Source: Myxococcota bacterium
GTDB taxonomy: Bacteria; Myxococcota_A; UBA9160; UBA6930
Assembly (NCBI GenBank): GCA_020027245.1
Contig: JAHRAN010000056.1
Location: 1-55,055 of the forward strand
Length of the DNA: 55,055 bases
Reading direction: 5' to 3'
Below, piece after piece: positions 15,440-29,288 of the stretch. The position numbers were made by a program, and so were the translations under genes. Position 1 is the stretch's first letter; the number at the start of each line of letters is the position of its first letter. Under the pieces are notes generated by a model, which was not told the origin of the DNA, ran no database searches, and worked only from the letters and a program-made list of their open reading frames with translations.

Positions 15440-15452
15440 GGCCTGTGCGGTG

Positions 15453-17450
15453 CTAGCCAGCGTGCGCCTCCTCGACCAGCGCGGTGATCTCTTCCATGAT
15501 CGCAGTCAGGTCGAAATCGCGCGGCGTATAAACCCGCGCAACGCCACGCGCTTGCAACGCCGCGGCGTCCTGCTCGGGAATGATGCCGCCGACCACGACC
15601 GGCAGCGAAAGCCCCGCGGCTTCGAGTTTTTCGATTACATCCGTCGCCAGCACCGCGTGCGAGCCGGACAGAATCGAAAGGCCGATCAGGTGCACGCCCT
15701 CGTCGCGCGCGCTCTGCACGATTTCGTCGGGCGTGAGGCGGATGCCCTCATAGACCACTTCCATGCCCAGATCGCGCGCGCGCACCGCAATTTGTTCGGC
15801 GCCGTTCGAGTGGCCGTCGAGGCCCGGTTTCCCGACCAGTATTTTGAGCGGGCGACCGATGCGCTCGCCCAGCGCCCGCACCCGCGCCCGCACTTTCGCG
15901 CTGCGCTCGTCCGCCAGCTCTGGTTTTCTCACGACGACTCCGGTGGGCGCGCGATATTCGCCAAAAACCGCGCGCAGTGTTCCCGCCCACTCACCCGTGG
16001 TGACGCCAGCCTGCGCCGCGCGGATCGAAGCGGGCATCACATTGTCGCCGTTTTTGAGCGCGTCGCGCAGCCCCAGCTCTGCGCTGCTGACCTCTTGCGG
16101 CGAGCGTGCGCTGCGAAACGCCTGAAGGCTTGCGATCTGCTCGCGCTCTGCCTCCGGGTCAACCTGCAGGATGTTCTCATAATCCGCTGCGTCGAGCGGC
16201 GAGGCTTCGCTCTCCTGCCAGGCGTTCACGCCGACCACGGTCTGCTCGCCGCTCTCGATGGCGCTGATGCGCTCCGACTGACTCTCGACCAGCCCTTGCT
16301 TCATGTAGCCGCTCTCGGTGGCGCTGATGGCGCCGCCCATCTCGAGCACGCGCGCGAGTTCCGCCTCGGCGCAGCGCAGCAGTTCAGCGACGCGCGCCTC
16401 CACCACCTTCGAGCCGTCGAAGAGATCCGGATATTCGAGCAGGTCCGTCTCATAGGCCAGCACCTGTTGAATGCGCAGCGACCACTGCTGATCCCAGGGG
16501 CGCGGCAGGCCGAGCGCCTCGTTCCAGGCGGGCAACTGAAGGGCGCGACAGCGCGCGCGCTTCGAGAGCGTGACGCCGAGCGCTTCGAGCACAATGCGGA
16601 TGACATTGTTCTCGGGCTGCGCTTCGGTCAGGCCGAGCGAGTTCACCTGCACGCCGTAGCGGAAGCGCAGCAGCTTTTCGTCGCTGACCCCGTAGCGCTC
16701 GCGGCCGATTTTCTCCCACAGCGCGCTCATCGCGCGGCCCTTGCAGATCTCTTCGATGAAGCGGATGCCCGCGTTCAGGAAGAACGAGATGCGGCCGAAC
16801 ACGCGCGGCAGCGCATCCGGCGCAAGGTCGCCACGCGCCTTCACGGTGTCGAGCACCGCGATGGCGTTGGCCAAGGCGTAGGCGATTTCCTGCACCGGCG
16901 TAGCGCCGGCTTCCTGAAGGTGGTAGCTGCAGATGTTGATCGGGTTCCACTTTGGAATTTCGTCGAGGGTCCAGGCCACCATGTCGCCGATCAGCCGCAG
17001 CGAGGGCTCCGGCGGAAAGACATAAGTGCCGCGCGACAGGTACTCCTTGATGATGTCGTTCTGCGTCGTGCCCGAGAGCGCACTTCGCTGTACACCCCGG
17101 CGTTCCGCCAGCGCCGCGTACAATGCGAGCAGCCAGGCGGCGGTGGCGTTGATGGTCATCGAGGTGTTCATCCGCTCGAGCGGAATCTCCTCGAAGAGCT
17201 TTTGCATGTCCCCGATGTGCCCGATCGGCACGCCGACCTTGCCGACCTCGCCCCGCGCCAGCGGGTGGTCGGCGTCGTAGCCGGTCTGCGTCGGCAGATC
17301 GAAGGCGATGGACAAGCCCGTCTGCCCCTTCGCCAGGTTGCGGCGATAGAGCGCGTTCGAGGCGGCGGCCGATGTGTGCCCCGAATAGGTGCGAAAGACC
17401 CAGGGCTGGTCTTTCGCCCGCGCTTCGCCTGCAGCGCCTGTTGCCGCCAT
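15453..17450 (-). CDS. B12-dependent acyl-CoA mutase, fused catalytic + B12-binding domains (Ecm/MeaA-like)
   Basis: Motifs seen: PWVFRTYSGHT, GQTGLSIAFDLPTQTGYD, SYHLQEAGATP, LPAWNEALGLPRPWDQQWSLR. The C-terminal GKPGLDGHSNG is the DxHxxG-type B12 site. GGGAGG lies 6 nt upstream of the ATG. The subfamily call is from memory of signatures only. Confidence 0.85.
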   Translation of the reverse strand: MAATGAAGEARAKDQPWVFRTYSGHTSAAASNALYRRNLAKGQTGLSIAFDLPTQTGYDADHPLARGEVGKVGVPIGHIGDMQKLFEEIPLERMNTSMTINATAAWLLALYAALAERRGVQRSALSGTTQNDIIKEYLSRGTYVFPPEPSLRLIGDMVAWTLDEIPKWNPINICSYHLQEAGATPVQEIAYALANAIAVLDTVKARGDLAPDALPRVFGRISFFLNAGIRFIEEICKGRAMSALWEKIGRERYGVSDEKLLRFRYGVQVNSLGLTEAQPENNVIRIVLEALGVTLSKRARCRALQLPAWNEALGLPRPWDQQWSLRIQQVLAYETDLLEYPDLFDGSKVVEARVAELLRCAEAELARVLEMGGAISATESGYMKQGLVESQSERISAIESGEQTVVGVNAWQESEASPLDAADYENILQVDPEAEREQIASLQAFRSARSPQEVSSAELGLRDALKNGDNVMPASIRAAQAGVTTGEWAGTLRAVFGEYRAPTGVVVRKPELADERSAKVRARVRALGERIGRPLKILVGKPGLDGHSNGAEQIAVRARDLGMEVVYEGIRLTPDEIVQSARDEGVHLIGLSILSGSHAVLATDVIEKLEAAGLSLPVVVGGIIPEQDAAALQARGVARVYTPRDFDLTAIMEEITALVEEAHAG

Positions 17451-17607
17451 CCGATACCTCCCGGTTTCGAGCAGATAGCTTAGTGCATGAAGGTTACTTG
17501 CTCCAGACTCATACCGCGAGTATTATAACCGAGAGCGCCTTGGCAATAGTGGGCTCTTGCAGATCCGCGAGCACGGCCGCGGACAGAAGATTGAAAGGAA
17601 TTGCACC

Positions 17608-18228
17608 ATGCGAGTCAAATTCTTGCTTGTCGCGGTAGCGTGTGGCTTGAGCATCAATTGCGCGGCTGGTGGCCAAGTTGGGAGTACTACCGAGCGCCTT
17701 GAACGGGAGTTGAGGAGTATTCCTGTGAGCGAGTACAAGAAGAACCTTGTCAGGTACAAGAAGTTGCTGCGCATGCATCCGGAGAACAAAAGGTATCAAA
17801 ACAAAGTAGCATTCTATGCGGACAAAATTGTTAACTGTGGTGGTTGTGATAGAGAAGTCGATCCGATTTTGGCGGCATGGAACGATGAAGATGCCCTGGA
17901 AGATCTTGTAAATCAGTGGGGAATGCGAGAGATGAGTAGCGCGAAGCTCAAAAATATTTGCAAGCGGATTGGAAGAGCGAGACTGAACAAGTACAGGTGG
18001 GCTGTGAATTCATTCACTCGAGAAGATATAGTTTCTCGGTCTCAATGCCATCGAGAAGACTCTTGCTCTCGTTGTGTGATGGTACCGGCTCGGTGTTATC
18101 AAGATGTCCGTTGCTCGATAGTCCCGACGAAACAAGTACAGCGATCGCTGTCCGGTCCAAGTGTTAGCTTGCTTCCAGTTAATCGGTTCACTATGGGGTA
18201 TATTTGTTACGGCCAGCACAGGATTTGA
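17608..18228 (+). CDS. Orphan secreted/lipoprotein-like Cys-rich protein in an AT-rich islet
   Basis: ATG 17608 is preceded by aaaggaa. Signal peptide MRVKFLLVAVACGLSINCAAG. 12 Cys follow the signal. About 44 % G+C in two hand-counted 60-nt lines. I recognise no family. Confidence 0.5.
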   Translation: MRVKFLLVAVACGLSINCAAGGQVGSTTERLERELRSIPVSEYKKNLVRYKKLLRMHPENKRYQNKVAFYADKIVNCGGCDREVDPILAAWNDEDALEDLVNQWGMREMSSAKLKNICKRIGRARLNKYRWAVNSFTREDIVSRSQCHREDSCSRCVMVPARCYQDVRCSIVPTKQVQRSLSGPSVSLLPVNRFTMGYICYGQHRI

Positions 18229-18323
18229 AGTGCTTCTGTGTGATCAGATCAAAAATTTCTACAACCGGTCGCGCACGAGTGTTGTAGTTCGTTTTCACCG
18301 GATAACTGGCTATAGGTCGTAAG

Positions 18324-19184
18324 ATGTTGCAGCGGCTTGACCACTTGCTGGTGGCGGTGTCGGATCTCGACGCCGCGGCGGATGCGTATGCGCGGTTGTT
18401 TGGTCGGCGGCCCGCGTGGCGGGGTGAGCATCCGGCCACGGGGACGCAGAGCGCGCTGTTCCGCCTCGAAAACAGCAGCCTCGCGCTGCTCGCGCCGGGG
18501 CCCGGTGAGGCGCACCCGCTCCGCTCGGCGATCAAAGCGCGCGGTGATGGCCCCTTCGGCCTGCTCTTCGGTGTGGACGATGCGGCGGCCTGCGCGCGCG
18601 CGCTCAAAGAAAAGGGGCTGGCGGTGACGGCGCCGCAGACCGGGCTCGGGCGCGATGTCGAGAGCGGCGCCTTTCGCGAGTGGACGGGCTTTGCGCTGCC
18701 GCTCGAAGCGACGCGCGCGGTGCCGCTCTTTGTGGTCGAGCACCAGACGCCCGCTGCGCTGCTGCCGCCCGCCGCCGCGCTCGCCGACGAGACCGCAACC
18801 GTCGCCGCGCTCGATCACGTGGTGCTGCGCACCCGCAACCCCGCCGCCACGCGCGCGCTCTACCGGGACGCCCTCGGCCTGCGCCTTGCGCTCGAACGCG
18901 CGGCGCCCGAGTGGAAGAGTCAGATGCTTTTCTTCCGCGTCGGCGGGGTGACGCTCGAAGTGGTGGCGCCCTTCGGCGTGGCTGATGCGGAGGCCACGCG
19001 CGATGAACTCTGGGGCGCGGCCTGGCGGGTGGCCGATGCCGGGGCCGCCCACGCGCGCTGCAGCGAGGCCGGCATCCCGGTTTCGGCGTTACGCCCCGGT
19101 CGCAAGCCGGGCACCCGCGTCTTCAGCGTGCGGGATGGAACCTGCGGCGTGCCGACCCTCGTCATCGAAACAGCAAAGCGCTAA
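18324..19184 (+). CDS. Two-module VOC (glyoxalase/bleomycin resistance/dioxygenase) family protein
   Basis: LDHLLVAVSDLDAAADAYARLFG at the N-terminus and a second LDHVVLRTRNPAATRALYRDALGL module. Confidence 0.75.
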   Translation: MLQRLDHLLVAVSDLDAAADAYARLFGRRPAWRGEHPATGTQSALFRLENSSLALLAPGPGEAHPLRSAIKARGDGPFGLLFGVDDAAACARALKEKGLAVTAPQTGLGRDVESGAFREWTGFALPLEATRAVPLFVVEHQTPAALLPPAAALADETATVAALDHVVLRTRNPAATRALYRDALGLRLALERAAPEWKSQMLFFRVGGVTLEVVAPFGVADAEATRDELWGAAWRVADAGAAHARCSEAGIPVSALRPGRKPGTRVFSVRDGTCGVPTLVIETAKR

Positions 19185-19220
19185 GCTGTCATCACATCGG
19201 CGCGCGCCCGGAGGGTGCAG

Positions 19221-20201
19221 ATGACCGTCAACCTCGAAAGCCCCGAAGCCTTGTTCCCGCGTGATCTCGAGGCGGAGATTCTGCGCCTCAAAGAAGAGCG
19301 CTCTGCGGTTCTGCTCGCCCACTACTATCAGGAGGACGAGGTTCAGGAGCTGGCGGACTTCGTTGGCGATTCGCTGGCGCTCGCGCAGCACGCGAAAAAT
19401 GTCGAGCGCGATGTGATCGTGTTCTGCGGCGTTCACTTCATGGCCGAGACGGCGAAGATTCTGAACCCGGAGCGTCGCGTCGTGGTGCCCGACCTCGATG
19501 CGGGTTGCTCGCTGGCGGACGGTTGCCCGCCCGATGCGTTCCAACAGTTCAAGGATGAACACCCGGGCGCGAAGGTGCTGACCTACATCAACTGCTCCGC
19601 CGAAGTGAAGGCGCTCTCCGATTTGATCTGCACTTCCTCGAACGCGGTGGCGATGGCGCAGGAGTTTCAGGGCGAGCCGCTGATTCTGGCGCCGGATCGT
19701 CATCTGGCGCGCTGGATTGCGCAGCAACTCGGGCGCGACGATTTGATCGTGTGGCCGGGCTCTTGCATCGTGCACGAACAATTCAGCGCCCGTGAGCTTT
19801 CGAAGCTGCGGGTGCGGCGCCGGGACGCCGAAGTGCTGGCGCATCCCGAGTGCGACGCCGCCGTTCTTGAGCAGGCGGATTTTATTGGCTCGACCTCTAA
19901 AATTATTGCGCGCTCAGTAGAAAGTTCAGCCGATACTTTGATCATCGCCACCGAGGATGGCGTGTTCCATCAGATCGAAAAGCAGTTGGCGAGGGCGGGA
20001 AAGCGCAAGGAGCTGCTTCAGGCGCCCGGCATGGACGAGAGTTGCGCCTGCAACCGCTGCCCTTACATGCGGCTCAACACCCTCGAAAAACTCTACCTGT
20101 GTCTGCGCGATCTGGAACCCGAGGTCACGGTGCCGGAGCCGATTCGTCTGCGCGCGCTGCAGCCCATCGAGAGGATGCTGGCGCTCTCAGGCCCGGTTTG
20201 A
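19221..20201 (+). CDS. nadA: Quinolinate synthase
   Basis: LLAHYYQ..EVQ..ADFVGDSL.LA, VFCGVHFMAETAKIL, and the CxxC..MR Fe-S ligands near the C-terminus. Confidence 0.92.
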   Translation: MTVNLESPEALFPRDLEAEILRLKEERSAVLLAHYYQEDEVQELADFVGDSLALAQHAKNVERDVIVFCGVHFMAETAKILNPERRVVVPDLDAGCSLADGCPPDAFQQFKDEHPGAKVLTYINCSAEVKALSDLICTSSNAVAMAQEFQGEPLILAPDRHLARWIAQQLGRDDLIVWPGSCIVHEQFSARELSKLRVRRRDAEVLAHPECDAAVLEQADFIGSTSKIIARSVESSADTLIIATEDGVFHQIEKQLARAGKRKELLQAPGMDESCACNRCPYMRLNTLEKLYLCLRDLEPEVTVPEPIRLRALQPIERMLALSGPV

Positions 20202-20205
20202 CTTT

Positions 20206-20424
20206 TTATTCGTAGAGTTTGATCACGCGCAGCGCGCCCTTTGGCGCGGCCTCGATGCAGAGATCGCAGAGCACGCACTCGTCGAGGTTGTCCTCGATAA
20301 TTTCGAGTTTTCCATTGCGCAGCGCGAAAATGTCCACGGCGCAGACCTCGCTCAGTTTCTGTGCGAGCTCCGCGTCGCTGGCGACGGCCTCGTCCACTTC
20401 GATATCAATGAAGATGCCCGGCAT
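20206..20424 (-). CDS. 72-aa ferredoxin-like protein (single Fe-S cluster motif)
   Basis: CAVDIF plus CVLCDLCIEAAP gives C-x21-C-x2-C-x2-C, the pattern of a half-ferredoxin. Its ATG overlaps the stop of the upstream CoA-ligase alpha gene (ATGA). Confidence 0.55.
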   Translation of the reverse strand: MPGIFIDIEVDEAVASDAELAQKLSEVCAVDIFALRNGKLEIIEDNLDECVLCDLCIEAAPKGALRVIKLYE

Positions 20425-21344
20425 CAGAGCGCAACTCCCTGCTCGGCGAGCTGGCGGCGCAGCAGCACGGGAATTTCCTCGATGCGCTCGACCACCGAGA
20501 TGCCGGCATCCTCCATGCGCGCGATTTTCTCGGCGCTGCTGTCCTCTTTTCCCTCGACGATGGTTCCCGCGTGGCCGAAGCGCATGCCCTTCATCTCGTC
20601 CATGAAGCGGCCAGCCATGAAGGCGACGACCGGCAGCCGCGTGTTGTTCGCCCGCACCCACTCGGAGAACTCGGCTTCCATGCGCCCGCCCGGCTCCGTG
20701 TAGATGGCGATGGCCTTTGTAGCCGGGTCGGCCTCGAAGAGCGGCATCAACTCGGCATACGTCGTGCCGACGATGGCGTCGCCGCCGATGGAGACGCAGG
20801 TGGACTGACCGAGGCCGCTGGCCGTCAGCGTCGAGGCGATTTCGGTGGTCATGCCGCCCGAGCGCGACATCAAACCCACGGGGCCCGGCATGTAGGCTTG
20901 CCTCGTGTTTTCGGCGGGGCCGCCCAGGCCGCCGAGCTTCGCCTCGCCCGGCGAGATGACGCCGAGGCAGTTGGGGCCGATGATGCGCGCGCCGCGCAAG
21001 CCGGCGAGTTCGACCATCTGCGCGACCTGCCGGCGCGGAATGTTCTCGGTGACGACGACCACGAGGCGGATGCCGTTTTCGAGCGCTTCGAACACGGCGT
21101 CGCGCGTGAAGCGGGGCGGCACCGAGACGATCGAGGCATCGGGTTGCCCCTGCGCGCGGATCAGGTCGCGCACGCAGTCGTACACCGGCACGCCATAGAC
21201 ATCGCGTCCGAAGCGCCCCGGCGTCACGCCGCCGGTAATTTTCAAGCCGCCGTAATTGAGGTTTTCGCGCGTCAGGTTCACGGCCTCGCGTCCGGTAATG
21301 CCCTGCACGATGCAGGTGGTGTCACGGCTTATCAGAATCGGCAT
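20424..21344 (-). CDS. ADP-forming acyl-CoA ligase alpha subunit (succinyl-CoA synthetase / malate thiokinase family)
   Basis: CoA-binding N-terminus IVQGITGREA. Phosphohistidine loop MRFGHAGTIVEG. The ATG at 21344 overlaps the stop of the beta gene. Confidence 0.85.
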   Translation of the reverse strand: MPILISRDTTCIVQGITGREAVNLTRENLNYGGLKITGGVTPGRFGRDVYGVPVYDCVRDLIRAQGQPDASIVSVPPRFTRDAVFEALENGIRLVVVVTENIPRRQVAQMVELAGLRGARIIGPNCLGVISPGEAKLGGLGGPAENTRQAYMPGPVGLMSRSGGMTTEIASTLTASGLGQSTCVSIGGDAIVGTTYAELMPLFEADPATKAIAIYTEPGGRMEAEFSEWVRANNTRLPVVAFMAGRFMDEMKGMRFGHAGTIVEGKEDSSAEKIARMEDAGISVVERIEEIPVLLRRQLAEQGVAL

Positions 21345-22549
21345 CAGCCGGCCCCGAGTTTTGCGACGGCGCGGCCCGCTGCATCGAACATCGAAACGCT
21401 GCGGTCGCAGTACGCGACGCCGTAGTGTTCGAGGATTTTGAAACCCTCGCCCTCCCATGAACCCGGGATGCGGAACACGGCGATGGCTTCCGAGGGGTTA
21501 ACGCCCGCGCGCAGGCAGCCCTTGATCACGCCGCGCGCCACGATGTCCACCCGCGTATTCGAAACCACATTCATCATCACCGCGATTTTTTCGACGCCCG
21601 GTTTCGAGAGGATCAACTCGGTGAGGTTTGCGGTTTTGGCGACGGAGGGGTTGCCTCCGATCTCGCAGTAGTTGGCGGGGCGGCCGCCCTGGCGGCGGAT
21701 GGCGTCGAAGAGCGTCAGCGAGCCGCCGCCGGCGCCGATGACCAGGCCGAGGTCACCATCGAACTCGACCACATTGCCGGCGACGCCACGGTGATCAATG
21801 GCGTTGCGGCGCGCGCCCTCGATTTCAAACGCGGTCGGCGGGCGCGCCAGCCGCGTTTCGGAGCTATCGATGCCGAGTTCGTCGAGCAGCGCCGCGTGCT
21901 CGCTCCGCGCCTCGGCCTCCATGTCCAAGTGGCCGTCGAGCACGATGAAGCGCCCGTCCTCGAGCCGCGCCAGCGGGTTGATCTCCGCGAGCGTCAGGTC
22001 GTAGCGCAAAAAAATCAGCAGCAGGCGGTGGACGATGGGGGTGAGCCGGTTCAGCGCCGCGCCGCTCACGCCCACCGCTGCGATGCCCTCCTTCGCAACG
22101 CGCTCTGTTACCGGCAGCAGCGACGAAAAGTGCGTGCGGGAGAGATGCTCCGGGTGCGACGCCGCCACTTCCTCGATGTCAATGCCGCCCATGTCGCTGA
22201 ACAGCAGCACGGGTCGCTTCGCGCGCCCGTCCCAGGTGACCGAGGCGAAGTACTCCTGCGCCACCCGGCTCTGCGCCTCGATGAGCACGGCGCGCGCGCG
22301 CTCGCCGTTCACGATAATCGGCAGCACCGCCTGATAGTGCGCGGCCGCCTCGTCGGGGGTGTCGGCGAAGCGCACCGCGCCCGCTTTCATCCGCCCACCG
22401 GAGAGCACCTGACTCTTCACCACCACCGGCCCGCCGATTTCGGCGGCAGCCGCGCGCGCCTCGTCGGCGGAGTTCACGACGCGGCGCGCGCCGAGCGGCA
22501 GGTCGTGACGCGCAAACAGCGCCTTCGCTTCATACTCGTAAAATCTCAA
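21344..22549 (-). CDS. ADP-forming acyl-CoA ligase beta subunit (ATP-grasp)
   Basis: (M)RFYEYEAKALFARH..P, PVVVKSQVLSGGR.KAG. A TTG at 22549 lies 8 nt after GGGAG. The alternative start is ATG 22588. Confidence 0.8.
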   Translation of the reverse strand: MRFYEYEAKALFARHDLPLGARRVVNSADEARAAAAEIGGPVVVKSQVLSGGRMKAGAVRFADTPDEAAAHYQAVLPIIVNGERARAVLIEAQSRVAQEYFASVTWDGRAKRPVLLFSDMGGIDIEEVAASHPEHLSRTHFSSLLPVTERVAKEGIAAVGVSGAALNRLTPIVHRLLLIFLRYDLTLAEINPLARLEDGRFIVLDGHLDMEAEARSEHAALLDELGIDSSETRLARPPTAFEIEGARRNAIDHRGVAGNVVEFDGDLGLVIGAGGGSLTLFDAIRRQGGRPANYCEIGGNPSVAKTANLTELILSKPGVEKIAVMMNVVSNTRVDIVARGVIKGCLRAGVNPSEAIAVFRIPGSWEGEGFKILEHYGVAYCDRSVSMFDAAGRAVAKLGAG

Positions 22550-22674
22550 GCGGCGGGCTCCCGGTGCGCGGACTCGTGCGGCGACCATACTTGCGCGCCG
22601 CCCCGGATGCAACGCCGCCCCGCGTGCTACGCTGCGCAGCCCCGGATCCACCGGTCTCGTTCACGGAGCATCAC

Positions 22675-23838
22675 ATGTCTGTCCCCGCGTACTCGATCAC
22701 CACCGACGCCATCGCCGCCGAGACGGAGCGCGCCGCAAAGAGCGGCAAGCCCTTCGATGTGGCGCGGGTGCTGACCCTCGATGAACTGAGCCTGCCCGCG
22801 CCCGGCGCAGGCGATGTGCATCTCAAAATTCTCGCGGTGTCGGCGGAGCACAACATTGATCACGCCAGCACCGCGGACACGGTCAACATCGCCGAGGTGC
22901 GCGGCGGGCGGATGATCCCGGGCAACAGCGCGCTCGCGGAGGTGCTGGCGGTGGGTGGCGGCGTCACAAAGTTCCAAGCCGGCGATGTGGTGATCACGCA
23001 CTGCAACGGCGGCCCGGACGCCGATGGTTTCCCGCTGCGCATCTGGGGCTACGACGCCGAGGACAGCGTCGGCTGGTACGCGAAGGAGGCCGTGGTTGCA
23101 GACTGGCAGTTGCTGCACGCGCCTCTCGATTGCGGTCTCAACCTGTGGGAGATCGCCGCGCTGCCGCTGCGCGCGCCGACCGCATACCATTTGTGGCGCC
23201 GCGCGCTTGGCATCTACCGCATCAAGGTGCCGCGCGAACGCCGCGCCCGCTTGAATGTGTTGAGTTTCGGCGGCGGCGTGGGCGAGTTGTTTCTGATGAT
23301 GGCGCGCGCCGAGGGTCACAACGCCTGGTTCTGCGCCGGCTCTGCCGAGCGCCGCGCTGCGCTCGAAGCGCAGGGCATCGCGGGCATTGATCAGAAACAG
23401 TTCAACCGCTTCACCACGCGCGATGATGTGCGCGCCTTCAGCAAACACTGCCGCGCGCTCACCGACGGTGAACAGATGCATCTGGTGTGCGACATGCTGC
23501 GCGGCCCGGTCTTCGACGCAGGTCTCGCGGTGGTGGCGCGACAGGGCGTGAATGTTTCCGCCGGCTGGCAGCTCTCGCAGAAGATCAGCTACAACTCGAC
23601 GCTGCTGAGCGTGAAGCAGGTGACCCTCGACCACACGCACTACGAAACGCTGGCAGGTTGCGCCGCCGCCACCGAGCTTTATGGCAGCGTCTTCCGTCCG
23701 ACGATCCACGACGAGATCTACAGTTGGAAAGACTTGCCCCGCGCCCACGCCGAAATGCACGCCAACACCCAGACGGGCATCCCGATTATCCGAGTTGCGG
23801 ACGAGTTGCCAGCGGCGGCGGAGCGCATCGTCCCGTAG
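22675..23838 (+). CDS. MDR-superfamily reductase resembling crotonyl-CoA carboxylase/reductase
   Basis: ATG 22675 follows GGAG. HCNGG.D..GFPLRIWGYDAEDSVGWYAKEAVV...QLL.AP, TAYHLW and the FGGGVG nucleotide loop are present. The C-terminal WKDLPRAHAEMH.N parallels the Ccr end. It is about 40 aa shorter than canonical Ccr. Confidence 0.6.
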   Translation: MSVPAYSITTDAIAAETERAAKSGKPFDVARVLTLDELSLPAPGAGDVHLKILAVSAEHNIDHASTADTVNIAEVRGGRMIPGNSALAEVLAVGGGVTKFQAGDVVITHCNGGPDADGFPLRIWGYDAEDSVGWYAKEAVVADWQLLHAPLDCGLNLWEIAALPLRAPTAYHLWRRALGIYRIKVPRERRARLNVLSFGGGVGELFLMMARAEGHNAWFCAGSAERRAALEAQGIAGIDQKQFNRFTTRDDVRAFSKHCRALTDGEQMHLVCDMLRGPVFDAGLAVVARQGVNVSAGWQLSQKISYNSTLLSVKQVTLDHTHYETLAGCAAATELYGSVFRPTIHDEIYSWKDLPRAHAEMHANTQTGIPIIRVADELPAAAERIVP

Positions 23839-23870
23839 TTGTGTCGCTGACCGGGGCGCTGCCGACCCCG

Positions 23871-23916
23871 TCCATCCTTTTGACCGCGCCGCGCCGCTGC
23901 TATCGGCCCTCAAAGG
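23871..23916. repeat. Intergenic repeat family B copy
   Basis: ccatccttttgaccgcgccgcgccgctgctatcggccctcaaagg. It lies between convergent genes and overlaps the stop of the hotdog-like gene. Confidence 0.65.
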
Positions 23917-24985
23917 CCGCGAGTTTCAGGCGGTAGTCGCCGACTTGCAGGCGGTTGTCGTCGGTGATGGCGGCGAGGGCTTTGCTGGCCTGCTGCCGCT
24001 CGTACTCGGCGCGGCCGATGGCGTTCACGTTGTTATAGACGGCGAGGTCGGCCGTCACGAGTTTAACGCCCGGTTGTCCGGGCCAGTCGCTGACTTCGCG
24101 CGTCGTGAGCGTTGCGGACAAATGCTCCGGCGGCTCGTCTTTGTGCGCCGGGTTCGCGTCTTCGCTGCGCAGCTTTTCGCTCAGGTAGACGGGCGCAATG
24201 TGCTTCGCCACATCGAGTCCCACGAGCAGGCAGGCGCTCAACTGCTCGGCGTAGTTGCGCACGCCGTAGAGCAGGGTGAGGAGACCCCACACGATGTAGC
24301 CCGAGCTGCGCGTGTAATGCGTCTTGGCGAGGTTGCCGAGGCCGCGCGTCAGCCAGAAGATGTCATCCGGTTGCAGCACGCTCGTGTACGCGGTCGGGAT
24401 GGTCTCGCCCACGCGAAAATCCTCGGCGGCGAGGGCAGCCGGCGCCGCTTCGCCCGGTTGTTCTTCCGGTCGCTCCTGCGGCAGCCGAGCCGTGGCCGGG
24501 TCGAAACAGGTGGTGATTTTCTCGCGGTCGTCCAGCGGCGCGCCATCGTCGGCCAGCCGCCAGCCGCGCCGCCCGTTCACGATGCACTCGCGGGTCCAAC
24601 TCAGAACGGGGTCTTCGCCCGGCGCGCCGATCACGCTTTGCACCTGACACACGCCGGTGTCGGCGCCCGGTGCGCGGAACTTGCGACCGAGCACGGTGGT
24701 CGTGGCCTCGAGCTCGAGGCTTGCCGGCGCGCGCCGGAACAGCACATTGCGCGCGCCGAGATTGGCGGGCGAGTTCTCGCTCACCGCCGTGGTCTTGCAA
24801 AAAGCGACGAGCTTGAAGTAGACCGGGTCGAGGCCACCCGTGGGCCGCCAGAAGAGTCGCCCGAAGCGCGCCTCGAAGGCCTCGGGCGTAATCGCAAGCC
24901 CCCGCCCGAGGGCGCCCCCCGGCAGCACCAGCCCCAGCTTCAAGTCCTCGATAAAAAGCCCGCTCTCGGCGCTGTGCTCGCTCAT
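23900..24985 (-). CDS. Hypothetical protein, possibly double-hotdog (MaoC-like) fold
   Basis: ATG 24985 is preceded by aggggaag. The 361-aa protein has two similar-length halves. The second half has a weak MaoC-like LQPDDIFWLTRGLGNLAKTHYT segment. G+C is like the core genome. The family assignment is tentative. Confidence 0.35.
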   Translation of the reverse strand: MSEHSAESGLFIEDLKLGLVLPGGALGRGLAITPEAFEARFGRLFWRPTGGLDPVYFKLVAFCKTTAVSENSPANLGARNVLFRRAPASLELEATTTVLGRKFRAPGADTGVCQVQSVIGAPGEDPVLSWTRECIVNGRRGWRLADDGAPLDDREKITTCFDPATARLPQERPEEQPGEAAPAALAAEDFRVGETIPTAYTSVLQPDDIFWLTRGLGNLAKTHYTRSSGYIVWGLLTLLYGVRNYAEQLSACLLVGLDVAKHIAPVYLSEKLRSEDANPAHKDEPPEHLSATLTTREVSDWPGQPGVKLVTADLAVYNNVNAIGRAEYERQQASKALAAITDDNRLQVGDYRLKLAAFEGR

Positions 24986-25028
24986 TCCGCTTCCCCTTTC
25001 CGGTTGACCGGCGCCGGCCGCTTCCGGT

Positions 25029-27956
25029 CTATCCGTTGCCGTTCGGAATGCGGGTGTGTTTGCCGCCGTGGACGCTGGGTTCGGCACACCACTTGCGGCG
25101 CAGCAGGTCGAGTGGTTCGAGTATGGCTTGGGGCAGACCGAGAAGCTCGACCAGCACGGCGCGGTCGAGGCTCTGGCGGGTCTCGTCTCGGTATGCCTCG
25201 TTCGCAGGCAGGAATTCCTGCTTCTTGAAGCGCTGGAAAATTTCTTTTGCCTGCTTGTGTTGCGTCGCGCTGAGTTTGCGGGTGTCGAGCACCGGCAGCT
25301 TCGGCAACTCGGTGATGGTGAGAATTGCCCGGCCCTGTTGTTGCCTGCTTCCACACCACCAGAACAGCATGATGCCGAGGGTGGTGTTCGCCCAGAGGAC
25401 AATCGCGTGCTCGTGTTCGGTTTTTTCCGGGATGAAATTCGGCCAAGCCCTGCCGCCGATGGCAGGTTTCGGCGTCACGCAAGCGGCGAGGCTCTGGGAG
25501 TTCAACCGAAAATCCCGGTTGAAGTGCAGTCTTGATGCCGTCTTCCAGACTTCCTGCGCCTTCTTTTCCATTCCAGCGCGCACAGTTCCCTGACGGTCCG
25601 GGTGAACAACGAGGCACCGCTCCCGCTCGGCATCATGCCCCCACAGGCAAGGCCATGTGGGTTGTCCGTGTATTCCTCCGATGTCAAAAGGGCCGCGCGG
25701 GCTTCCGTCGCTCTGCATCCCGTTTATGTCCATGTGGTAGAACCCTCGTTTCCCGATCTCGGTGATCTCGGCTATCGGTATGTTGCGCCTCCGCTTCGCA
25801 CCGGGCAGTGCGAGGCTCCCGTTTTCAAGCGCCTTGCAAGTTGTCACCAGTTCCGGGTCGCCGACGCCTGCCATGCCGCCATCGTGGAGCGTTCCGGACA
25901 TGACGGCACCCGCGCGGGTATCTCCAATCAGAAGATCGCCTTCCGAATTGATAATTCCCTGTGCGACGACAACGGCCTCTGCGACGCTTTTCGGTCGGCT
26001 TTGCAGCGATGCGAAGCGGACGGTTGCGTGTTCTACGATCCGCTTGGTCTCGCGCTTTTTCCCGATGACGAGCGCCTCGGCCATGCCGGTGTCGGCGGAA
26101 AAGGCTCTCATCGTCGCCCCAGTCGTGGCAAGCGAGACCACCGTGATGTCGTCATAGAACTGGTCGAGTAACTCCCGGCTCATTTTCCATGCCCGGCCCT
26201 GCGTCAGAGAAGCGGGGACAACCATTGCGAGTATTCCGCCCGGTTTCAGCTTGATGTTTGCGAGGTCCAGGAAATTCGAGGCAAGTCCTGCGTTCCCGTG
26301 CCCGGCGGTGTCTTTGATCTTGCTCTGCATTTTCTGAAGTCTCTGCGACATCACACGCTGCTCATCATCACTTGTATTGAAGCCAGCAAACGATGGAACA
26401 GGTACCCCAATTTTCTTAGCACTCTCGTGTCCCGTCGGTCTCGTGAACGGCGGGTTCATGATTACGAGGTCGCAGCTCCTGTGTTTAAGCTCAAAGTCTG
26501 GAAGTTTTGCTTTGGCTTCTACTTCGTGCTCGCCACGCCCACCGACTGCCCGGATTCCGGTGGTTACAAAAAGATCGGTGGCGTGCTCTGCTTCGATCAG
26601 GTCAAGTGCGCCCAGTGCCAACGGCTGAGGTTCGTCTCCTCTCTCTGGTGGCTTGCCGTAGGGAAGAACATGAATCTGCGTTTTGTGGAAAGTGATCCTC
26701 GGGTGTGTGCTCGACAGTATCGAGGTCGTAAGGTGCGTCGCGGCAGGCATGATGTCCGTGGCAATCAGTGATTTCTCCATCATCGGCCTGTGGAGTTCAC
26801 TGTCCGAGCCGCCCGCTCTTCGATGCCGCGCGAGCACGGCGTGATACGCCGCTGACAGCAGTGCTCCGGTGCCACAGGAGAGATCCGCAATTCGCAGCGC
26901 TTTGATCGCGTTGGCATCTCTCCAGTCAACCTCCAGCCTGCCGACGGCGAGTTCAGCCAGCAGGCTGGCGGACTCGGGCAGGGTGTAAAAGGTCGCCAGG
27001 AACTTGCGATCCGAGATCAAGCGTTGGAACATTCGGCCCGACAAGTCGTGTGATTGAGTGACACCAATGGCGGCCAACTCGTTGGCGACGTCAGCGAGGT
27101 TATCCAGAATCTTCGCCGCCACGGAAGCCGGTATCGGCTTCATCACTTTGCTGGCGATGTCGAAAATCGGCCAGTAGTTGATTTCATACAGTATCCGCTG
27201 CCACTCTTTGAGAACAGCATCACTGGGCAGCACGCCATTGGTGGTGCGCAATTCTGCGATGGTTTTTACATCGTGCGTTCCCGCGATGATGCCCTGAAAG
27301 ATCAGCGCGTTGGCGGCAATCGCCATCGCCATGCGTGTAGTCTGTACTCCATCTTTCTGATGAAGCTGCTCGGCAATTTTTTCATTGACTGCGGGCTTGC
27401 TCTTCAGCGCCTGTCTGAGCAGCCCCGCCGCCGCGCCGACACCCTTTTCCAGCGTGTCGAGGCTCTTCGCAATCACCTGCTCGGACAGAAATGCGTTTTC
27501 GATCAGGTCCGCAAGGTCGTCCACGCTGCCCTGCAGCCATCCCGTTGCAGGCCAGCGCACCAGCGGGTCGCCACTATCGTCGCCCGCCGAGAGAAGGCAG
27601 TACTCATAGGTCGCCTTTTCGATCGCCTGTTTCAGTCGCGCCTGCTCCACCGATTTCAGCGCTTTCGGTGCCCGCAGGGCGACTACACGCTTGATGGTCT
27701 TGCCCGTCTCGCTGGTTTTGCCTCCAAGGCGTGACTTCGCATCTTTCTCCACTTCTCTTGCTGGCAGATACTCGGTTTCCACCACGATGGGCGCATCCTC
27801 GGCCTTCGAGATCAGGATGTCCGGTGTCCCCCTTCCCTTGAGAACGCTGCTCGCTTCGGCAACGAGGGTTCGACCGGTTTTACGCCACTCCGGGTTCTTG
27901 GTGCGCAGAACCTCGGCCAACATGATGTTGAAGGTTCTCTCGTCGTTCTCCGCCAT
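25029..27956 (-). CDS. 975-aa N6-adenine DNA methyltransferase fusion (Type IIG-like single-chain R-M/defence candidate)
   Basis: ATG 27956 is preceded by agggag. Motif X-like FYTLPESASLL, motif I IADLSCGTGALL, motif IV DLVIMNPPFTRP, and post-motif LKPGGILAMVVPASL are present. There is an N-terminal ~110-aa PD..ExE nuclease-like segment and a ~400-aa C-terminal extension. G+C is lower and patchy: 48 %, 53 % and 72 % in three hand-counted lines. Confidence 0.8.
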   Translation of the reverse strand: MAENDERTFNIMLAEVLRTKNPEWRKTGRTLVAEASSVLKGRGTPDILISKAEDAPIVVETEYLPAREVEKDAKSRLGGKTSETGKTIKRVVALRAPKALKSVEQARLKQAIEKATYEYCLLSAGDDSGDPLVRWPATGWLQGSVDDLADLIENAFLSEQVIAKSLDTLEKGVGAAAGLLRQALKSKPAVNEKIAEQLHQKDGVQTTRMAMAIAANALIFQGIIAGTHDVKTIAELRTTNGVLPSDAVLKEWQRILYEINYWPIFDIASKVMKPIPASVAAKILDNLADVANELAAIGVTQSHDLSGRMFQRLISDRKFLATFYTLPESASLLAELAVGRLEVDWRDANAIKALRIADLSCGTGALLSAAYHAVLARHRRAGGSDSELHRPMMEKSLIATDIMPAATHLTTSILSSTHPRITFHKTQIHVLPYGKPPERGDEPQPLALGALDLIEAEHATDLFVTTGIRAVGGRGEHEVEAKAKLPDFELKHRSCDLVIMNPPFTRPTGHESAKKIGVPVPSFAGFNTSDDEQRVMSQRLQKMQSKIKDTAGHGNAGLASNFLDLANIKLKPGGILAMVVPASLTQGRAWKMSRELLDQFYDDITVVSLATTGATMRAFSADTGMAEALVIGKKRETKRIVEHATVRFASLQSRPKSVAEAVVVAQGIINSEGDLLIGDTRAGAVMSGTLHDGGMAGVGDPELVTTCKALENGSLALPGAKRRRNIPIAEITEIGKRGFYHMDINGMQSDGSPRGPFDIGGIHGQPTWPCLWGHDAERERCLVVHPDRQGTVRAGMEKKAQEVWKTASRLHFNRDFRLNSQSLAACVTPKPAIGGRAWPNFIPEKTEHEHAIVLWANTTLGIMLFWWCGSRQQQGRAILTITELPKLPVLDTRKLSATQHKQAKEIFQRFKKQEFLPANEAYRDETRQSLDRAVLVELLGLPQAILEPLDLLRRKWCAEPSVHGGKHTRIPNGNG

Positions 27957-28157
27957 GGTTTCGCTCCCTGTCGCCTCGGACTGCTGTATCTCGCCCGCAA
28001 GGCGCGAGGCCCGTCTGCTTCGCACCCTATACCGGCTTGCGCCCGCCTTCGCCAACTGCCCGGCAAAAAGCGGCTTGGGGCGCATGACACCGGGGCGGCG
28101 GGCTTCTATAGTGCCGCCCGTGCTTGTGCTCGCAGCGAACAGGACGGAAGTGCTCCC

Positions 28158-29288
28158 TTGATTGTCGCCGTGCCGAAGGAAGTGGCCGTCGCGGAGCGGC
28201 GGGTGGCGCTGGTTGCAGCCGGGGTGAAGGCGCTCGTGGCGGCGGGTCACGAACTGCGCGTCGAAGCCGGCGCGGGCCTGGCCGCCGGTGTTTCGGACGC
28301 GGACTACGAGGCCGCGGGCGCGCGCATCAGCGCCACGCCGCTCGAAGGCGCCGGGTTGCTGTTGAAGGTGCAGGCGCCGAGCGCGCAGGAGATCGCGGCG
28401 CTCGGTTCCGGCGCGGCGCTGATTTCGCTGCTGCAGCCGCTCGACAAACCCGAGCGCGCAGGCGAGTTGGCGCGCGCGGGCATCAGCGCCTTCGCCCTCG
28501 AACTGCTGCCGCGCATCACGCGCGCGCAGACGATGGATGTGCTCTCGTCGCAGGCCACTGTTGCCGGGTACCGCGCGGTGCTGCTCGCGGCGAGCCGCCT
28601 GCCGCGCATGCTGCCGATGCTGGTCACCGCAGCCGGCACCATCTCGCCGGCGCGGGTGTTCGTTATCGGCGCGGGTGTCGCCGGGCTGCAAGCCATCGCC
28701 ACGGCCCGCCGCCTCGGCGCCGTGGTGGACGCCTACGACACGCGCGCCGCCGCCGCCGAGCAGATCGAAAGCATCGGCGCACGCTTCCTCACGCTCGATC
28801 TCGAGACGGCCGACGCCGAGGACGCGGGCGGTTACGCGAAGGAGCAGGACGAAGCCTTCTACACGCGGCAGCGGCAACAGATGGGCGAGCAGGCGCGGCG
28901 CTCGGACATCATCATCACCACCGCGCTGGTGCCCGGTCGCCGCGCGCCGCTGTTGATTGACGAAGCGGGCCTGCGCGCCATGCGGCCCGGCTCGGTGGTG
29001 GTGGATCTGGCGGCGGCGAACGGCGGCAACTGCGCGCTGACCCGCGCCGACGAGGAACTCAATGTGGACGGCGTGCAAGTGCTGGGGCCGACCAATCTGG
29101 CCAGCGACCTGCCCGCCAACGCCAGCGCCATGTTCAGCCGCAATGTGGTCGCGCTGCTGCAGCATCTGGCGCCCGAGGGGCGGCTCGCGCTCGACCTCGC
29201 GGACGAAATCACCGACGCCGCCCTCGTGACACACGAAGGTGTCGTGCGAAACCCGGCGCTGCGCGCTGCGCTCGAAGGAGGCGCTTGA
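28158..29288 (+). CDS. pntAA: NAD(P) transhydrogenase subunit alpha part 1
   Basis: MIVAVPKE....ERRVALVAAGVKALVAAGHELRVEAGAG and the Rossmann loop VIGAGVAGLQAIATARRLGA. TTG start. Confidence 0.92.
   Translation: MIVAVPKEVAVAERRVALVAAGVKALVAAGHELRVEAGAGLAAGVSDADYEAAGARISATPLEGAGLLLKVQAPSAQEIAALGSGAALISLLQPLDKPERAGELARAGISAFALELLPRITRAQTMDVLSSQATVAGYRAVLLAASRLPRMLPMLVTAAGTISPARVFVIGAGVAGLQAIATARRLGAVVDAYDTRAAAAEQIESIGARFLTLDLETADAEDAGGYAKEQDEAFYTRQRQQMGEQARRSDIIITTALVPGRRAPLLIDEAGLRAMRPGSVVVDLAAANGGNCALTRADEELNVDGVQVLGPTNLASDLPANASAMFSRNVVALLQHLAPEGRLALDLADEITDAALVTHEGVVRNPALRAALEGGA

What the first reader, a model, noticed from the sequence alone, without database searches (positions are those of the whole stretch)
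25029..28157. Lower-G+C single-gene insertion encoding a 975-aa methyltransferase fusion: candidate Type IIG-like or novel single-protein defence system
Seen: the annotated 1,401-aa ORF is really a 975-aa gene (ATG 27956, agggag SD), because its upstream part is antisense to pntAA. The central domain has gamma-class N6-adenine MTase motifs in order: FYTLPESASLL (variant of FYTP), IADLSCGTGALL (motif I), DLVIMNPPFTRP (motif IV), LKPGGILAMVVPASL. The first ~110 aa contain GTPDILISKAEDAPIVVETEY, which is a PD ... E-x-E arrangement reminiscent of PD-(D/E)XK nuclease cores but without the canonical Lys. About 250 helical residues link it to the MTase. About 400 C-terminal residues (…WPCLWGHD…, …LWANTTLGIMLFWWCG…, …LPKLPVLD…) could be a target-recognition domain. 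G+C is patchy and lower than the neighbours (48 %, 53 % and 72 % in three sampled lines). The gene is wedged between pntAA (divergent) and a core-composition hotdog-like gene only 43 nt downstream. Established: N-terminal nuclease + MTase + TRD in one chain defines Type IIG/IIL enzymes such as MmeI. No separate specificity, helicase or partner gene is present. The atypical nuclease and FYTP motifs leave open that this is a different, undescribed single-protein system or an orphan methylase.
Basis: partly seen in the sequence, partly recalled or inferred. Interest (0 to 1): 0.65.

Follow-up and report, generated by a model that had tools for sequence, protein, structure and literature searches.

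The report
Single-gene type IIG-like restriction-modification enzyme
This 975-residue gene most likely encodes a one-protein restriction-modification enzyme (DNA cutter, adenine methylase and DNA reader in one chain) from a large, unnamed family, and some cells of the same population lack it.

Summary
The real gene is window 25029-27956 (minus strand, 975 aa). It has lower G+C than its surroundings and sits between pntAA and a conserved 361-aa gene.

The predicted structure (pLDDT 84) best matches the type IIG enzyme BpuSI, then DrdV and PglX. The order of parts is an N-terminal PD-(D/E)XK-type nuclease fold, a helical spacer, a gamma-class N6-adenine methyltransferase (FYTLP, DxxCGTG, NPPF) and a C-terminal module.

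The odd 'PD...ExE' motif lies exactly where relatives have the canonical 'PD...ExK'. Among 127 divergent relatives, D46 and E60 are kept in 126, and position 62 is E in 104 and K in 21.

No partner gene is conserved within 10 kb in 84 related loci. The family is large (about 1,800 clusters at 50% identity, E<=1e-30) and has no name or own model in Pfam, NCBIfam or PADLOC. It spans more than 10 phyla, and many carriers are sponge-symbiont genomes. It sometimes forms tandem arrays whose C-terminal modules have been exchanged.

In the source sample (a cold-seep metagenome), a second allele has 134 nt in place of the 3,133-nt segment.

Verdict: a new sequence family and variant of a known kind (type IIG/IIL). 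Activity is untested.

The parts
25029..27956 (-). Gene for the 975-aa fusion protein (stop codon 25029-25031)
   Evidence: More than 4,800 homologues; the best 120 are full length at 50-57% identity.
27964..27969 (-). Shine-Dalgarno-like AGGGAG, 7 nt before ATG 27956
   Evidence: Read directly from the sequence.
27528..27956 (-). N-terminal PD-(D/E)XK-type nuclease domain (aa 1-143). Candidate catalytic residues are E6, D46, E60 and E62 (D46-E62 = nt 27771-27821).
   Evidence: The AF2 domain model has pLDDT 93.8 and topology a-b-b-b-a-b. The weak Foldseek hits are almost all PD-(D/E)XK nucleases. D46 and E60 are kept in 126 of 127 divergent relatives, and position 62 is E in 104 and K in 21.
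27012..27527 (-). Helical spacer (aa 144-315)
   Evidence: Helices 145-315 in the AF2 model. BpuSI and MmeI-type enzymes have a helical connector at this place (PMC3185434 abstract; PMC4833311).
26037..27011 (-). Gamma-class N6-adenine DNA methyltransferase core (aa 316-640): FYTLP 323-327, DLSCGTG 358-364, NPPF 501-504 (nt 26445-26456), FSADT 619-623
   Evidence: Motifs seen. NPP is kept in 204-205 of 205 sequences, and F504 in 202. Pfam Eco57I is hit by 35 of 49 divergent members. A family profile hits BrxX/PglX at 6e-5 and DrdV at 9e-4 in PDB sequences.
25032..26036 (-). C-terminal module (aa 641-975), inferred target-recognition domain; aa 641-760 is the most variable part of the protein
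   Evidence: Full-length Foldseek alignments to BpuSI and PglX span 1075-1089 columns. Mean pairwise identity is lowest in aa 641-760: 27.5% against 43% in the MTase core. Tandem paralogues are mosaic in this module.
24972..28104 (.). 3,133-nt segment that is polymorphic in the source population; an alternative allele carries 134 nt here
   Evidence: Logan contigs of run X1. One contig spans 24942-28134 (depth 95). A 194-nt contig (depth 39) shares only the 30 nt on each side. The flank contigs are unbranched.
28158..29288 (+). Flank: pntAA (divergent), followed by pntAB and pntB
   Evidence: Pfam AlaDh_PNT_N/C, PNTB_4TM and PNTB.
23900..24985 (-).
   Evidence: No Pfam match. Relatives are 63-68% identical. 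In L086 it lies directly beside pntAA.

Best explanation
The gene encodes a stand-alone, single-polypeptide restriction-modification enzyme of type IIG/IIL architecture, from a large sequence family that no library names.

Proposed mechanism:
- The C-terminal module reads a short DNA sequence.
- The central gamma-class methyltransferase (NPPF pocket, S-adenosylmethionine) methylates an adenine there at N6 and so marks host DNA.
- On unmarked incoming DNA, the N-terminal PD-(D/E)XK-type nuclease cuts at a distance set by the helical spacer. By analogy with MmeI/DrdV and BpuSI, this probably needs enzyme molecules bound at more than one site.
- In this clade the canonical Lys of the nuclease motif is Glu (E6...PD46...E60-x-E62), an acidic arrangement known from BamHI.

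Because cutting and protection travel in one gene, the unit can move between genomes on its own. Here it was acquired between pntAA and the downstream gene and is not fixed in the population.

Shown: domain order, predicted folds, motif conservation, absence of partner genes, presence/absence polymorphism, foreign base composition.
Inferred: DNA as the substrate, actual cleavage, specificity, defence phenotype.
For: - The AF2 model has pLDDT 83.9 and pTM 0.86.
- The Foldseek top hit is the type IIG enzyme BpuSI (3s1s, E 1e-16, 1089 aligned columns). Next come DrdV (6e-13), PglX/BrxX (2e-12, TMq up to 0.46), CamA, M.BseCI, LlaBIII and BsaXI.
- The N-terminal domain model (pLDDT 93.8) has abbbab topology, with D46 at the start of strand 2 and E60/E62 in strand 3.
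- The weak Foldseek hits of the N-terminal domain are almost all PD-(D/E)XK nucleases: Exo5, R2 endonuclease, NucS/EndoMS, Cas4, SfsA, AdnAB, McrC.
- In 205 close homologues E6, D46 and E60 are each kept in at least 97%; position 62 is E in 201 and K in 3; N501, P502 and P503 are kept in 204-205 and F504 in 202.
- In 127 divergent representatives D46 and E60 are kept in 126, and position 62 is E in 104 and K in 21.
- Plasmid homologues at 25-26% identity read PD...E-G-K.
- Pfam Eco57I is hit by 35 of 49 divergent members, best E 7e-14. A family profile matches BrxX, DrdV and BsaXI sequences.
- No neighbour is conserved within 10 kb in 84 loci. Neighbours are mostly housekeeping genes, with AAA_15/AAA_21-type defence ATPases next to about 1 locus in 10.
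- Tandem copies have near-identical N-terminal parts but diverged or exchanged C-terminal modules.
- Lower G+C and GC3; a site without the gene in a relative; a gene-less allele in the same sample.
Against: - No member of the family has been characterised, as far as these tools show. No source gives a name beyond 'hypothetical protein' or 'N-6 DNA methylase'.
- The window protein itself scores below Pfam's cut-off for Eco57I (19.1 against 25.3 bits).
- The N-terminal domain alone gives no significant structural match (best E 0.03).
- The canonical Lys is missing in this clade.
- The C-terminal 215 residues are well conserved, which is unusual for a region that sets specificity.
- Two distant plasmid homologues lie among plasmid-transfer and anti-restriction-type genes, where orphan protective methylases are common.
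Confidence: 0.68

Rival explanations
1. It is a solitary (orphan) or anti-restriction DNA adenine methyltransferase. The N-terminal nuclease-like domain no longer cuts and serves DNA binding or oligomerisation. The gene protects DNA (its own genome or a transferring element) or acts in epigenetic regulation.
For: - The canonical Lys is replaced by Glu in this clade.
- PGAP names a distant homologue 'N-6 DNA methylase'.
- The distant plasmid homologues sit beside an ArdC-like zincin gene, DUF5710 and DUF3560, or beside PRTRC genes and a second methylase. These are plasmid-establishment surroundings.
- The fold also matches the orphan methylases CamA and M.BseCI at E about 1e-10.
Against: - E6, D46 and E60 are nearly invariant across sequences that are only about 30% identical in this domain. 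That points to a working acidic metal site rather than a relic.
- E/K alternation at position 62 has a catalytically active precedent in BamHI (established knowledge, not tested here).
- CamA and M.BseCI lack any N-terminal nuclease domain.
- The mosaic C-terminal exchange in tandem arrays is what is expected for restriction specificities under diversifying pressure.
Confidence: 0.17
2. It is the methyltransferase subunit of a multi-gene defence system (BREX-like PglX or MADS-like Mad2) whose other genes lie elsewhere in the genome.
For: - The best PADLOC hit is mad2 (3.6e-10, MTase core only), and there is a weak PglX hit (1.4e-3).
- The highest TM-scores in Foldseek are to PglX/BrxX (TMq 0.41-0.46).
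- A family profile hits BrxX motif I at 6e-5.
Against: - No BREX or MADS partner, and no other gene, is conserved within 10 kb in 84 loci. Neighbours are mostly housekeeping genes.
- PglX is not known to carry an N-terminal PD-(D/E)XK domain (my recollection; not checked here).
- The gene is gained or lost as a single unit.
Confidence: 0.05
3. It is a selfish mobile gene, homing-endonuclease-like or transposon-like, in which the nuclease promotes its own spread rather than defence.
For: - Single-gene presence/absence polymorphism.
- Spread over more than 10 phyla at 47-57% identity.
- Multiple and tandem copies in some genomes.
Against: - There are no conserved non-coding ends, terminal repeats or target-site duplication.
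- Insertion sites are unrelated.
- An intact, invariant methyltransferase would have no role in homing.
- Selfish spread is in any case a known side of ordinary RM genes, so this is a gloss on the main explanation more than a rival to it.
Confidence: 0.05

Closest known systems
Type IIG restriction-modification enzymes, BpuSI / Eco57I type (PDB 3s1s; Pfam PF07669)
   Same: - One chain with an N-terminal PD-(D/E)XK nuclease, a helical connector, a gamma-class N6-adenine MTase and a C-terminal recognition module.
- No partner gene.
- Best structural match (E 1e-16, full-length alignment).
- Most family members hit the Eco57I MTase model.
   Different: - About 12% sequence identity.
- The window protein is below the Pfam cut-off.
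- BpuSI has PD-x15-ExK (PMC3185434 abstract); this clade has PD-x13-ExE.
- There are long insertions between MTase motifs I, IV and V.
- Activity is unknown.
MmeI family / type IIL (MmeI, DrdV; PDB 7lo5; Pfam MmeI_N, MmeI_hel, MmeI_Mtase, MmeI_TRD, MmeI_C)
   Same: - Same domain order and a single-gene system (PMC2582602).
- Foldseek E 6e-13.
- A family profile hits the DrdV sequence at 9e-4.
- Specificity modules that can be exchanged or altered are a known feature of that family (PMC4833311).
   Different: - No MmeI_N, MmeI_hel, MmeI_TRD or MmeI_C match at E<=1 for the window protein.
- Only 2 of 49 relatives touch MmeI_Mtase weakly.
PglX / BrxX, the BREX methyltransferase (PDB 8c45, 9ewz, 8q56)
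   Same: Large gamma-class adenine MTase with a C-terminal recognition region. It gives the highest TM-scores (0.41-0.46) and the best sequence-level PDB hit (6e-5).
   Different: PglX works with five or so BREX partner genes. None is linked here. The conserved nuclease-type N-terminal domain here is not, to my knowledge, part of PglX (recollection, not checked here).
BamHI active site (Glu77, Asp94, Glu111, Glu113)
   Same: A PD-(D/E)XK-fold nuclease in which the canonical Lys is Glu, giving E...D...ExE as here. This comes from established knowledge and was not tested here.
   Different: Unrelated in sequence and architecture. BamHI is a small type IIP homodimer with a separate methylase.
Mad2 of the MADS defence system (PADLOC PDLC04134)
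   Same: Best hit among defence-system models: 3.6e-10 over aa 285-637.
   Different: The hit covers the MTase core only. The multi-gene MADS context is absent.

Membership tests
Type IIG restriction-modification enzymes | Endonuclease and methyltransferase in one polypeptide | tested here: met
   One 975-aa ORF with a nuclease-type fold at aa 1-143 and an MTase core at aa 316-640. The full-length fold match to BpuSI has E 1e-16.
Type IIG restriction-modification enzymes | PD-(D/E)XK catalytic motif in the nuclease domain | tested here: inconclusive
   Topology and positions fit. D46 and E60 are kept in 126 of 127 relatives. Position 62 is K in 21 of 127 relatives but E in this protein and in 104 of 127. 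The domain alone has no significant Foldseek hit (best E 0.03), although its weak hits are nearly all PD-(D/E)XK nucleases.
Type IIG restriction-modification enzymes | Gamma-class N6-adenine MTase motifs in the order X, I, IV | tested here: met
   FYTLP 323-327, DxxCGTG 358-364, NPPF 501-504; kept in at least 98% of 205 homologues. Eco57I model hit in 35 of 49 relatives.
Type IIG restriction-modification enzymes | Target-recognition domain in the same chain | tested here: inconclusive
   Alignments to BpuSI and PglX run the full length. aa 641-760 is the most variable part. C-terminal modules differ or are exchanged between tandem copies. No domain-level fold search of the C-terminus was possible, and no DNA contact is shown.
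Type IIG restriction-modification enzymes | Sequence-specific cleavage at a fixed distance, affected by S-adenosylmethionine | not testable with these tools
   Needs purified protein or methylome data.
Pfam Eco57I (PF07669) | Score at or above the gathering cut-off (25.3 bits) | tested here: not met
   The window protein scores 19.1 bits, E 1.5e-3. 35 of 49 divergent relatives hit the model at E<=0.01, best E 7e-14. The family is therefore related to the model, but this member is below the line.
MmeI family (type IIL) | Matches to the MmeI_N, MmeI_hel, MmeI_Mtase, MmeI_TRD and MmeI_C models | tested here: not met
   No MmeI model at E<=1 for the window protein. MmeI_Mtase is hit weakly in 2 of 49 relatives.
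BREX (PglX) | Linked BREX partner genes (brxA, brxB, brxC, pglZ, brxL) | tested here: not met
   No gene is conserved within 10 kb of 84 loci. The families shown for 140 neighbour ORFs (the 25 matched by most members) include no BREX model. The window's own neighbours are pnt genes and metabolic genes.
MADS (Mad2) | Linked mad1 and mad3-mad8 genes | tested here: not met
   Only the MTase core hits mad2. The 3 neighbour hits to mad3 are AAA_15-type ATPases that score far better on other models.
Mobile insertion with defined ends (IS or transposon-like) | Conserved terminal sequences or target-site duplication | tested here: not met
   No flanking repeats in the window. No shared non-coding ends among 71-72 loci, apart from closely related genomes.

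The most novel reading that the evidence does not exclude
The ExE clade may not be a classical type IIG restriction enzyme. It could be a distinct single-protein system in which the all-acidic nuclease site has a different chemistry or trigger, for example nicking, a different metal requirement, or activation other than by an unmethylated site. Its strongly conserved C-terminal 215 residues could do something other than reading DNA sequence. Independently, the family may be a niche-wide mobile barrier to gene flow, shared by sponge-associated bacteria of more than ten phyla.
Probability: 0.15. Interest if true: 0.7.

Novelty: new variant of a known kind. Interest (0 to 1): 0.45.

Why it matters
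- Single-chain RM enzymes are the smallest self-contained defence units, and their specificities can be re-engineered (the MmeI family is the model).
- This family has about 1,800 clusters at 50% identity, has no name or family model of its own in the libraries searched (Pfam, NCBIfam, PADLOC), and has no characterised member that I could find.
- Characterising one member would annotate thousands of 'hypothetical proteins' and add a new scaffold with possibly new specificities.
- It would also test whether an ExE site works in a type IIG setting.
- The presence/absence polymorphism inside one natural population, and the spread across phyla of sponge symbionts, make it a usable marker for how defence genes move in host-associated communities.

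Tried and rejected
- **Sequence searches of PDB.** The protein and the A1 and A2 profiles gave nothing significant. Only the broader A5 profile reached BrxX and DrdV.
- **Fold search with the N-terminal domain alone.** No hit below E 0.03, so the nuclease assignment rests on topology, motif positions and E/K alternation, not on a significant fold hit.
- **A conserved partner gene.** All-against-all BLASTP of ORFs in 84 loci found none.
- **Element ends.** No terminal or direct repeats in the window and no shared upstream or downstream non-coding sequence among 71-72 loci.
- **A misreading of my own.** I first took the X1 contig joining 24971 to 28105 for a clean 3,133-nt deletion, and puzzled over an ATA at the expected start codon of the downstream gene. 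Searches show that this contig is 194 nt long, with 134 nt of other sequence between the two 30-nt anchors, and that it carries a normal Shine-Dalgarno and ATG for the downstream gene. The ATA puzzle and the '0 microhomology' reading are withdrawn.
- **Source names for the family.** None found.
- **Rfam and tRNA scans.** Nothing near the locus.
- **Literature.** Searches found no description of this family.
- **Not done.** A domain-level fold search of the C-terminal module (structure-prediction cap reached) and the second batch of neighbour ORFs.
Full report
**1. The observation**

The six-frame ORF 25029-29234 (minus strand) is 1401 codons long. Its first 426 codons lie antisense to a plus-strand gene at 28158-29288. 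That gene matches both alanine-dehydrogenase/PNT domains (E 5e-38 and 3e-61), and pntAB and pntB follow it.

The real gene starts at ATG 27956, with AGGGAG 7 nt upstream, and encodes 975 residues. All of the best 120 homologues are 956-1123 aa, and nearly all align from this Met.

The gene has 58.8% G+C against 67.2% for the window. Its GC3 is 0.70 against 0.83-0.90 in six neighbouring genes. The lowest-G+C 3.1-kb stretch of the whole 55 kb starts at about 24900. The next gene downstream starts at ATG 24985, 43 nt after the stop codon.

There are two corrections. The helical linker is about 170 residues, not about 250. The downstream 361-aa gene has no Pfam match at all, so 'hotdog-like' is unsupported.

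**2. What the protein is: sequence**

Sequence libraries barely see this protein.
- Pfam gives only sub-threshold Eco57I (19.1 bits against a cut-off of 25.3) and MTS.
- NCBIfam gives nothing useful.
- PADLOC's best hit is mad2 at 3.6e-10, over the MTase core only. It is followed by weak type II, type I, PglX and type IIG methylase models.
- No solved structure is found by sequence.

Yet the family is large.
- One search gave 4,871 proteins at E<=1e-3 among the 8,000 candidates scored.
- A profile search of 1.84 billion cluster representatives gave 1,812 representatives at E<=1e-30 and 3,539 at E<=1e-10.
- No source names them beyond 'hypothetical protein'.
- A profile built from divergent members (A5) ties the MTase core to known enzymes. 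35 of 49 members hit Pfam Eco57I (best E 7e-14). The profile reaches BrxX/PglX (6e-5), DrdV (9e-4) and BsaXI (6e-3) among PDB sequences.

**3. What the protein is: structure**

The AlphaFold2 model built on 43 homologues is confident (pLDDT 83.9, pTM 0.86). Foldseek against the PDB gives these hits, all at about 12% identity:
- first the type IIG enzyme BpuSI (3s1s, E 1e-16, alignment over 1089 columns, i.e. end to end);
- then the MmeI-family enzyme DrdV (6e-13) and PglX/BrxX of BREX (2e-12, highest TM-score 0.46);
- then CamA, M.BseCI, LlaBIII and BsaXI.

BpuSI is described as an N-terminal PD-x15-ExK endonuclease coupled through folded domains to C-terminal methylation and target-recognition activities (PMC3185434, abstract). 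MmeI is described as an amino-terminal endonuclease, a central methyltransferase and a C-terminal recognition domain (PMC2582602, abstract).

**4. The nuclease question**

A separate model of aa 1-158 is very confident (pLDDT 93.8). It has the order helix 6-20, strands 31-33, 47-51 and 54-63, helix 69-76, strand 90-96. This is the a-b-b-b-a-b core of PD-(D/E)XK nucleases, with D46 at the start of the second strand and E60-x-E62 in the third.

On its own this domain gives no significant fold match (best E 0.03). Nine of its ten best weak hits are PD-(D/E)XK nucleases: Exo5, the R2 endonuclease, NucS/EndoMS, Cas4 SSO0001 and SfsA. AdnAB, McrC, Bax1 and RecB appear further down.

The stronger argument is comparative.
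- In 205 distinct close homologues, E6, D46 and E60 are each kept in at least 97%. Position 62 is E in 201 and K in 3.
- In 127 divergent representatives, D46 and E60 are kept in 126. Position 62 is E in 104 and K in 21, for example PDVV...VLVEAKY.
- Two plasmid homologues at 25-26% identity read RPDV...IEGKF.

So E62 occupies the canonical Lys position of a true PD-(D/E)XK motif, and the acidic residues are under strong constraint even though the domain is only about 30% identical across the set. From established knowledge, BamHI uses Glu77, Asp94, Glu111 and Glu113, so an ExE site can be active.

One hint is not followed up. Position 95 is Arg or Lys in 80 of 104 ExE sequences but in 6 of 21 ExK sequences. 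The sequences are not independent, so this is only a lead.

**5. The C-terminal module**

The region aa 641-760 is the most variable part of the protein. Its mean pairwise identity is 27.5%, against 43% in the MTase core. The last 215 residues are well conserved.

Some genomes hold tandem arrays: two copies in L024, three in L056, three in L071, and two copies 3.4 kb apart in L081. Within arrays the copies are mosaic.
- L071 copies 2 and 3 are 95-100% identical over the first 500 alignment columns but 60-74% identical over columns 600-1000.
- L056 copies 1 and 3 are 96-99% identical over the first 600 columns and 80-86% over columns 600-900.
- L056 copies 2 and 3 show the reverse pattern: 72-86% over the first 500 columns and 89-98% over columns 600-900.

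Exchange of a C-terminal module on a constant catalytic body is what is expected of a specificity domain. This supports, but does not prove, that the module is the target-recognition domain.

**6. Solitary and mobile**

A scan of one genome per species found at least 573 loci. The best 80 are all metagenome-assembled genomes from more than ten phyla, at 47-57% identity to the query. Several genomes carry 2-3 copies.

All-against-all comparison of ORFs within 10 kb in 84 loci found no conserved neighbour.
- Contexts range from housekeeping genes to plasmid-like regions.
- About one locus in ten has AAA_15/AAA_21-type defence ATPases next door.
- There are no conserved non-coding ends and no flanking repeats.

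A distant relative (L086; proteins 61-77% identical) has pntB-pntAB-pntAA and the 361-aa gene side by side, about 150 nt apart, with no methylase.

The window's source run is labelled a cold-seep metagenome. Its Logan contigs show a bubble at this locus.
- One contig covers 24942-28134 (depth 95).
- A 194-nt contig (depth 39) shares only 24942-24971 and 28105-28134 with the window and has 134 nt of other sequence in between.
- The flanking contigs (1,059 nt and 1,587 nt, of which 1,396 nt lie in the stretch examined; depth 104) are unbranched.
- The known end of the 134 nt carries a Shine-Dalgarno sequence and an ATG for the downstream gene (M-A-E-A-P-H-A-E-S-G-L-F).
- This end resembles the left end of the 3,133-nt segment (GGGGAAG...ATGAGCGAGCACAG). 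The truly foreign DNA is therefore probably a little shorter than 3,133 nt.

The gene is therefore present in some and absent in other members of one population. The depths do not add up and contigs are not reads, so the allele frequencies are rough.

**7. Mechanism and rivals**

The best reading (confidence about 0.68) is an active single-chain type IIG/IIL-like RM enzyme, as set out in the Best explanation section.

The main rival (about 0.17) is a solitary or anti-restriction methylase with a retired nuclease domain. Two things suggest it: the missing Lys, and the distant plasmid homologues that sit among plasmid-establishment genes. The near-invariance of the acidic residues argues against it.

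Two readings are unlikely. A BREX-like or MADS-like subunit with distant partners is contradicted by the lack of any linked gene. A homing-like selfish element is contradicted by the lack of defined ends or a preferred site.

**8. Novelty**

The architecture is a known kind. What is new:
- a large, unannotated sequence family;
- a predominant ExE variant of the catalytic motif;
- its spread among uncultured bacteria of many phyla;
- the within-population polymorphism.

REBASE could not be consulted, so prior listing there as 'putative type IIG' cannot be excluded.

Noticed in passing
L005-L084 (genome-contig scan): The 80 nearest genomic relatives are all MAGs. Many have names that point to marine-sponge symbionts (Ca. 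Poriferihabitaceae, Ca. Porifericomitaceae, Latescibacterota, Dehalococcoidia, Longimicrobiales, Synechococcus SB0668 and others), across more than 10 phyla at 47-57% identity. The window itself comes from a cold-seep metagenome. Isolation sources were not checked, and database composition may bias this.
   Followed up: partly
L024 7016-12907; L056 3833-12958; L071 6821-16096; L081 10001-19142: Tandem or near-tandem arrays of 2-3 full-length copies. The L024 copies are 100% identical, which could be a true duplication or an assembly effect. The others are mosaics with exchanged C-terminal parts.
   Followed up: partly
window 23757-23900: The intergenic stretch between the ends of the 361-aa gene and the ccr-like gene has contig depths of about 1,000-1,900 in run X1, against about 104 around it, with several variant contigs and loose ends. 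This fits a short sequence shared by many loci or genomes in the sample. Its core GGGGCGCTGCCGACCCCG is not repeated in the window.
   Followed up: partly
window 17557-18228 (+): A second G+C dip (about 0.61) holds a 223-aa ORF with an N-terminal hydrophobic segment and only a faint ISL3-transposase similarity (E 0.04). It lies just after the methylmalonyl-CoA-mutase-like gene.
   Followed up: no
window 28084-28112 (+): The only sigma-70-like match in the region (ATGACA, 17 nt, TATAGT; 10 of 12) straddles the right edge of the polymorphic segment and faces pntAA. Its -35 lies in the acquired DNA and its -10 in the shared flank. About 0.6 such matches are expected by chance.
   Followed up: no
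window 14450-23838: The neighbourhood looks like a C2/C4 acyl-CoA assimilation cluster. It includes a MeaB-like GTPase (my reading of the translation), a mutase-like 665-aa gene (my reading of the translation), a succinyl-CoA/malate-thiokinase-like pair (one member hits Pfam ATP-grasp_2) and a crotonyl-CoA-reductase-like dehydrogenase (Pfam ADH_N and ADH_zinc_N). The order 361-aa gene, ccr-like, mtkA-like is kept in L088.
   Followed up: no
L029 4414-5916 (-): Next to a full-length family member lies a 500-aa truncated distant paralogue (27% identity). It has AD...E-A-E, DSRKFLATNYT and DPACGSG, but breaks off before NPPF. A 293-aa ORF at 6542-7423 looked to me like a tyrosine recombinase; this was not checked.
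   Followed up: no
L090 (Aminobacter sp. MSH1 pUSP4), L091 (Sulfuricystis pSTJ1), L092 (Nitrosospira pNRS527-2): Cultured bacteria carry family members on plasmids. Two ExK-type members (25-26% identity) lie among ArdC-like, DUF5710, DUF3560 or PRTRC genes. One ExE-type member (41% identity) lies right after type IV secretion genes and carries no annotation in PLSDB. Dinoroseobacter shibae plasmids hold only a C-terminal fragment (aa 726-941, 42% identity).
   Followed up: partly
protein position 95 (window nt 27672-27674): Position 95 is Arg or Lys in 80 of 104 ExE-type sequences, but in 6 of 21 ExK-type sequences, where it is mostly Leu or Val. This could be a relocated positive charge. It is not corrected for relatedness and not checked in the model.
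   Followed up: no
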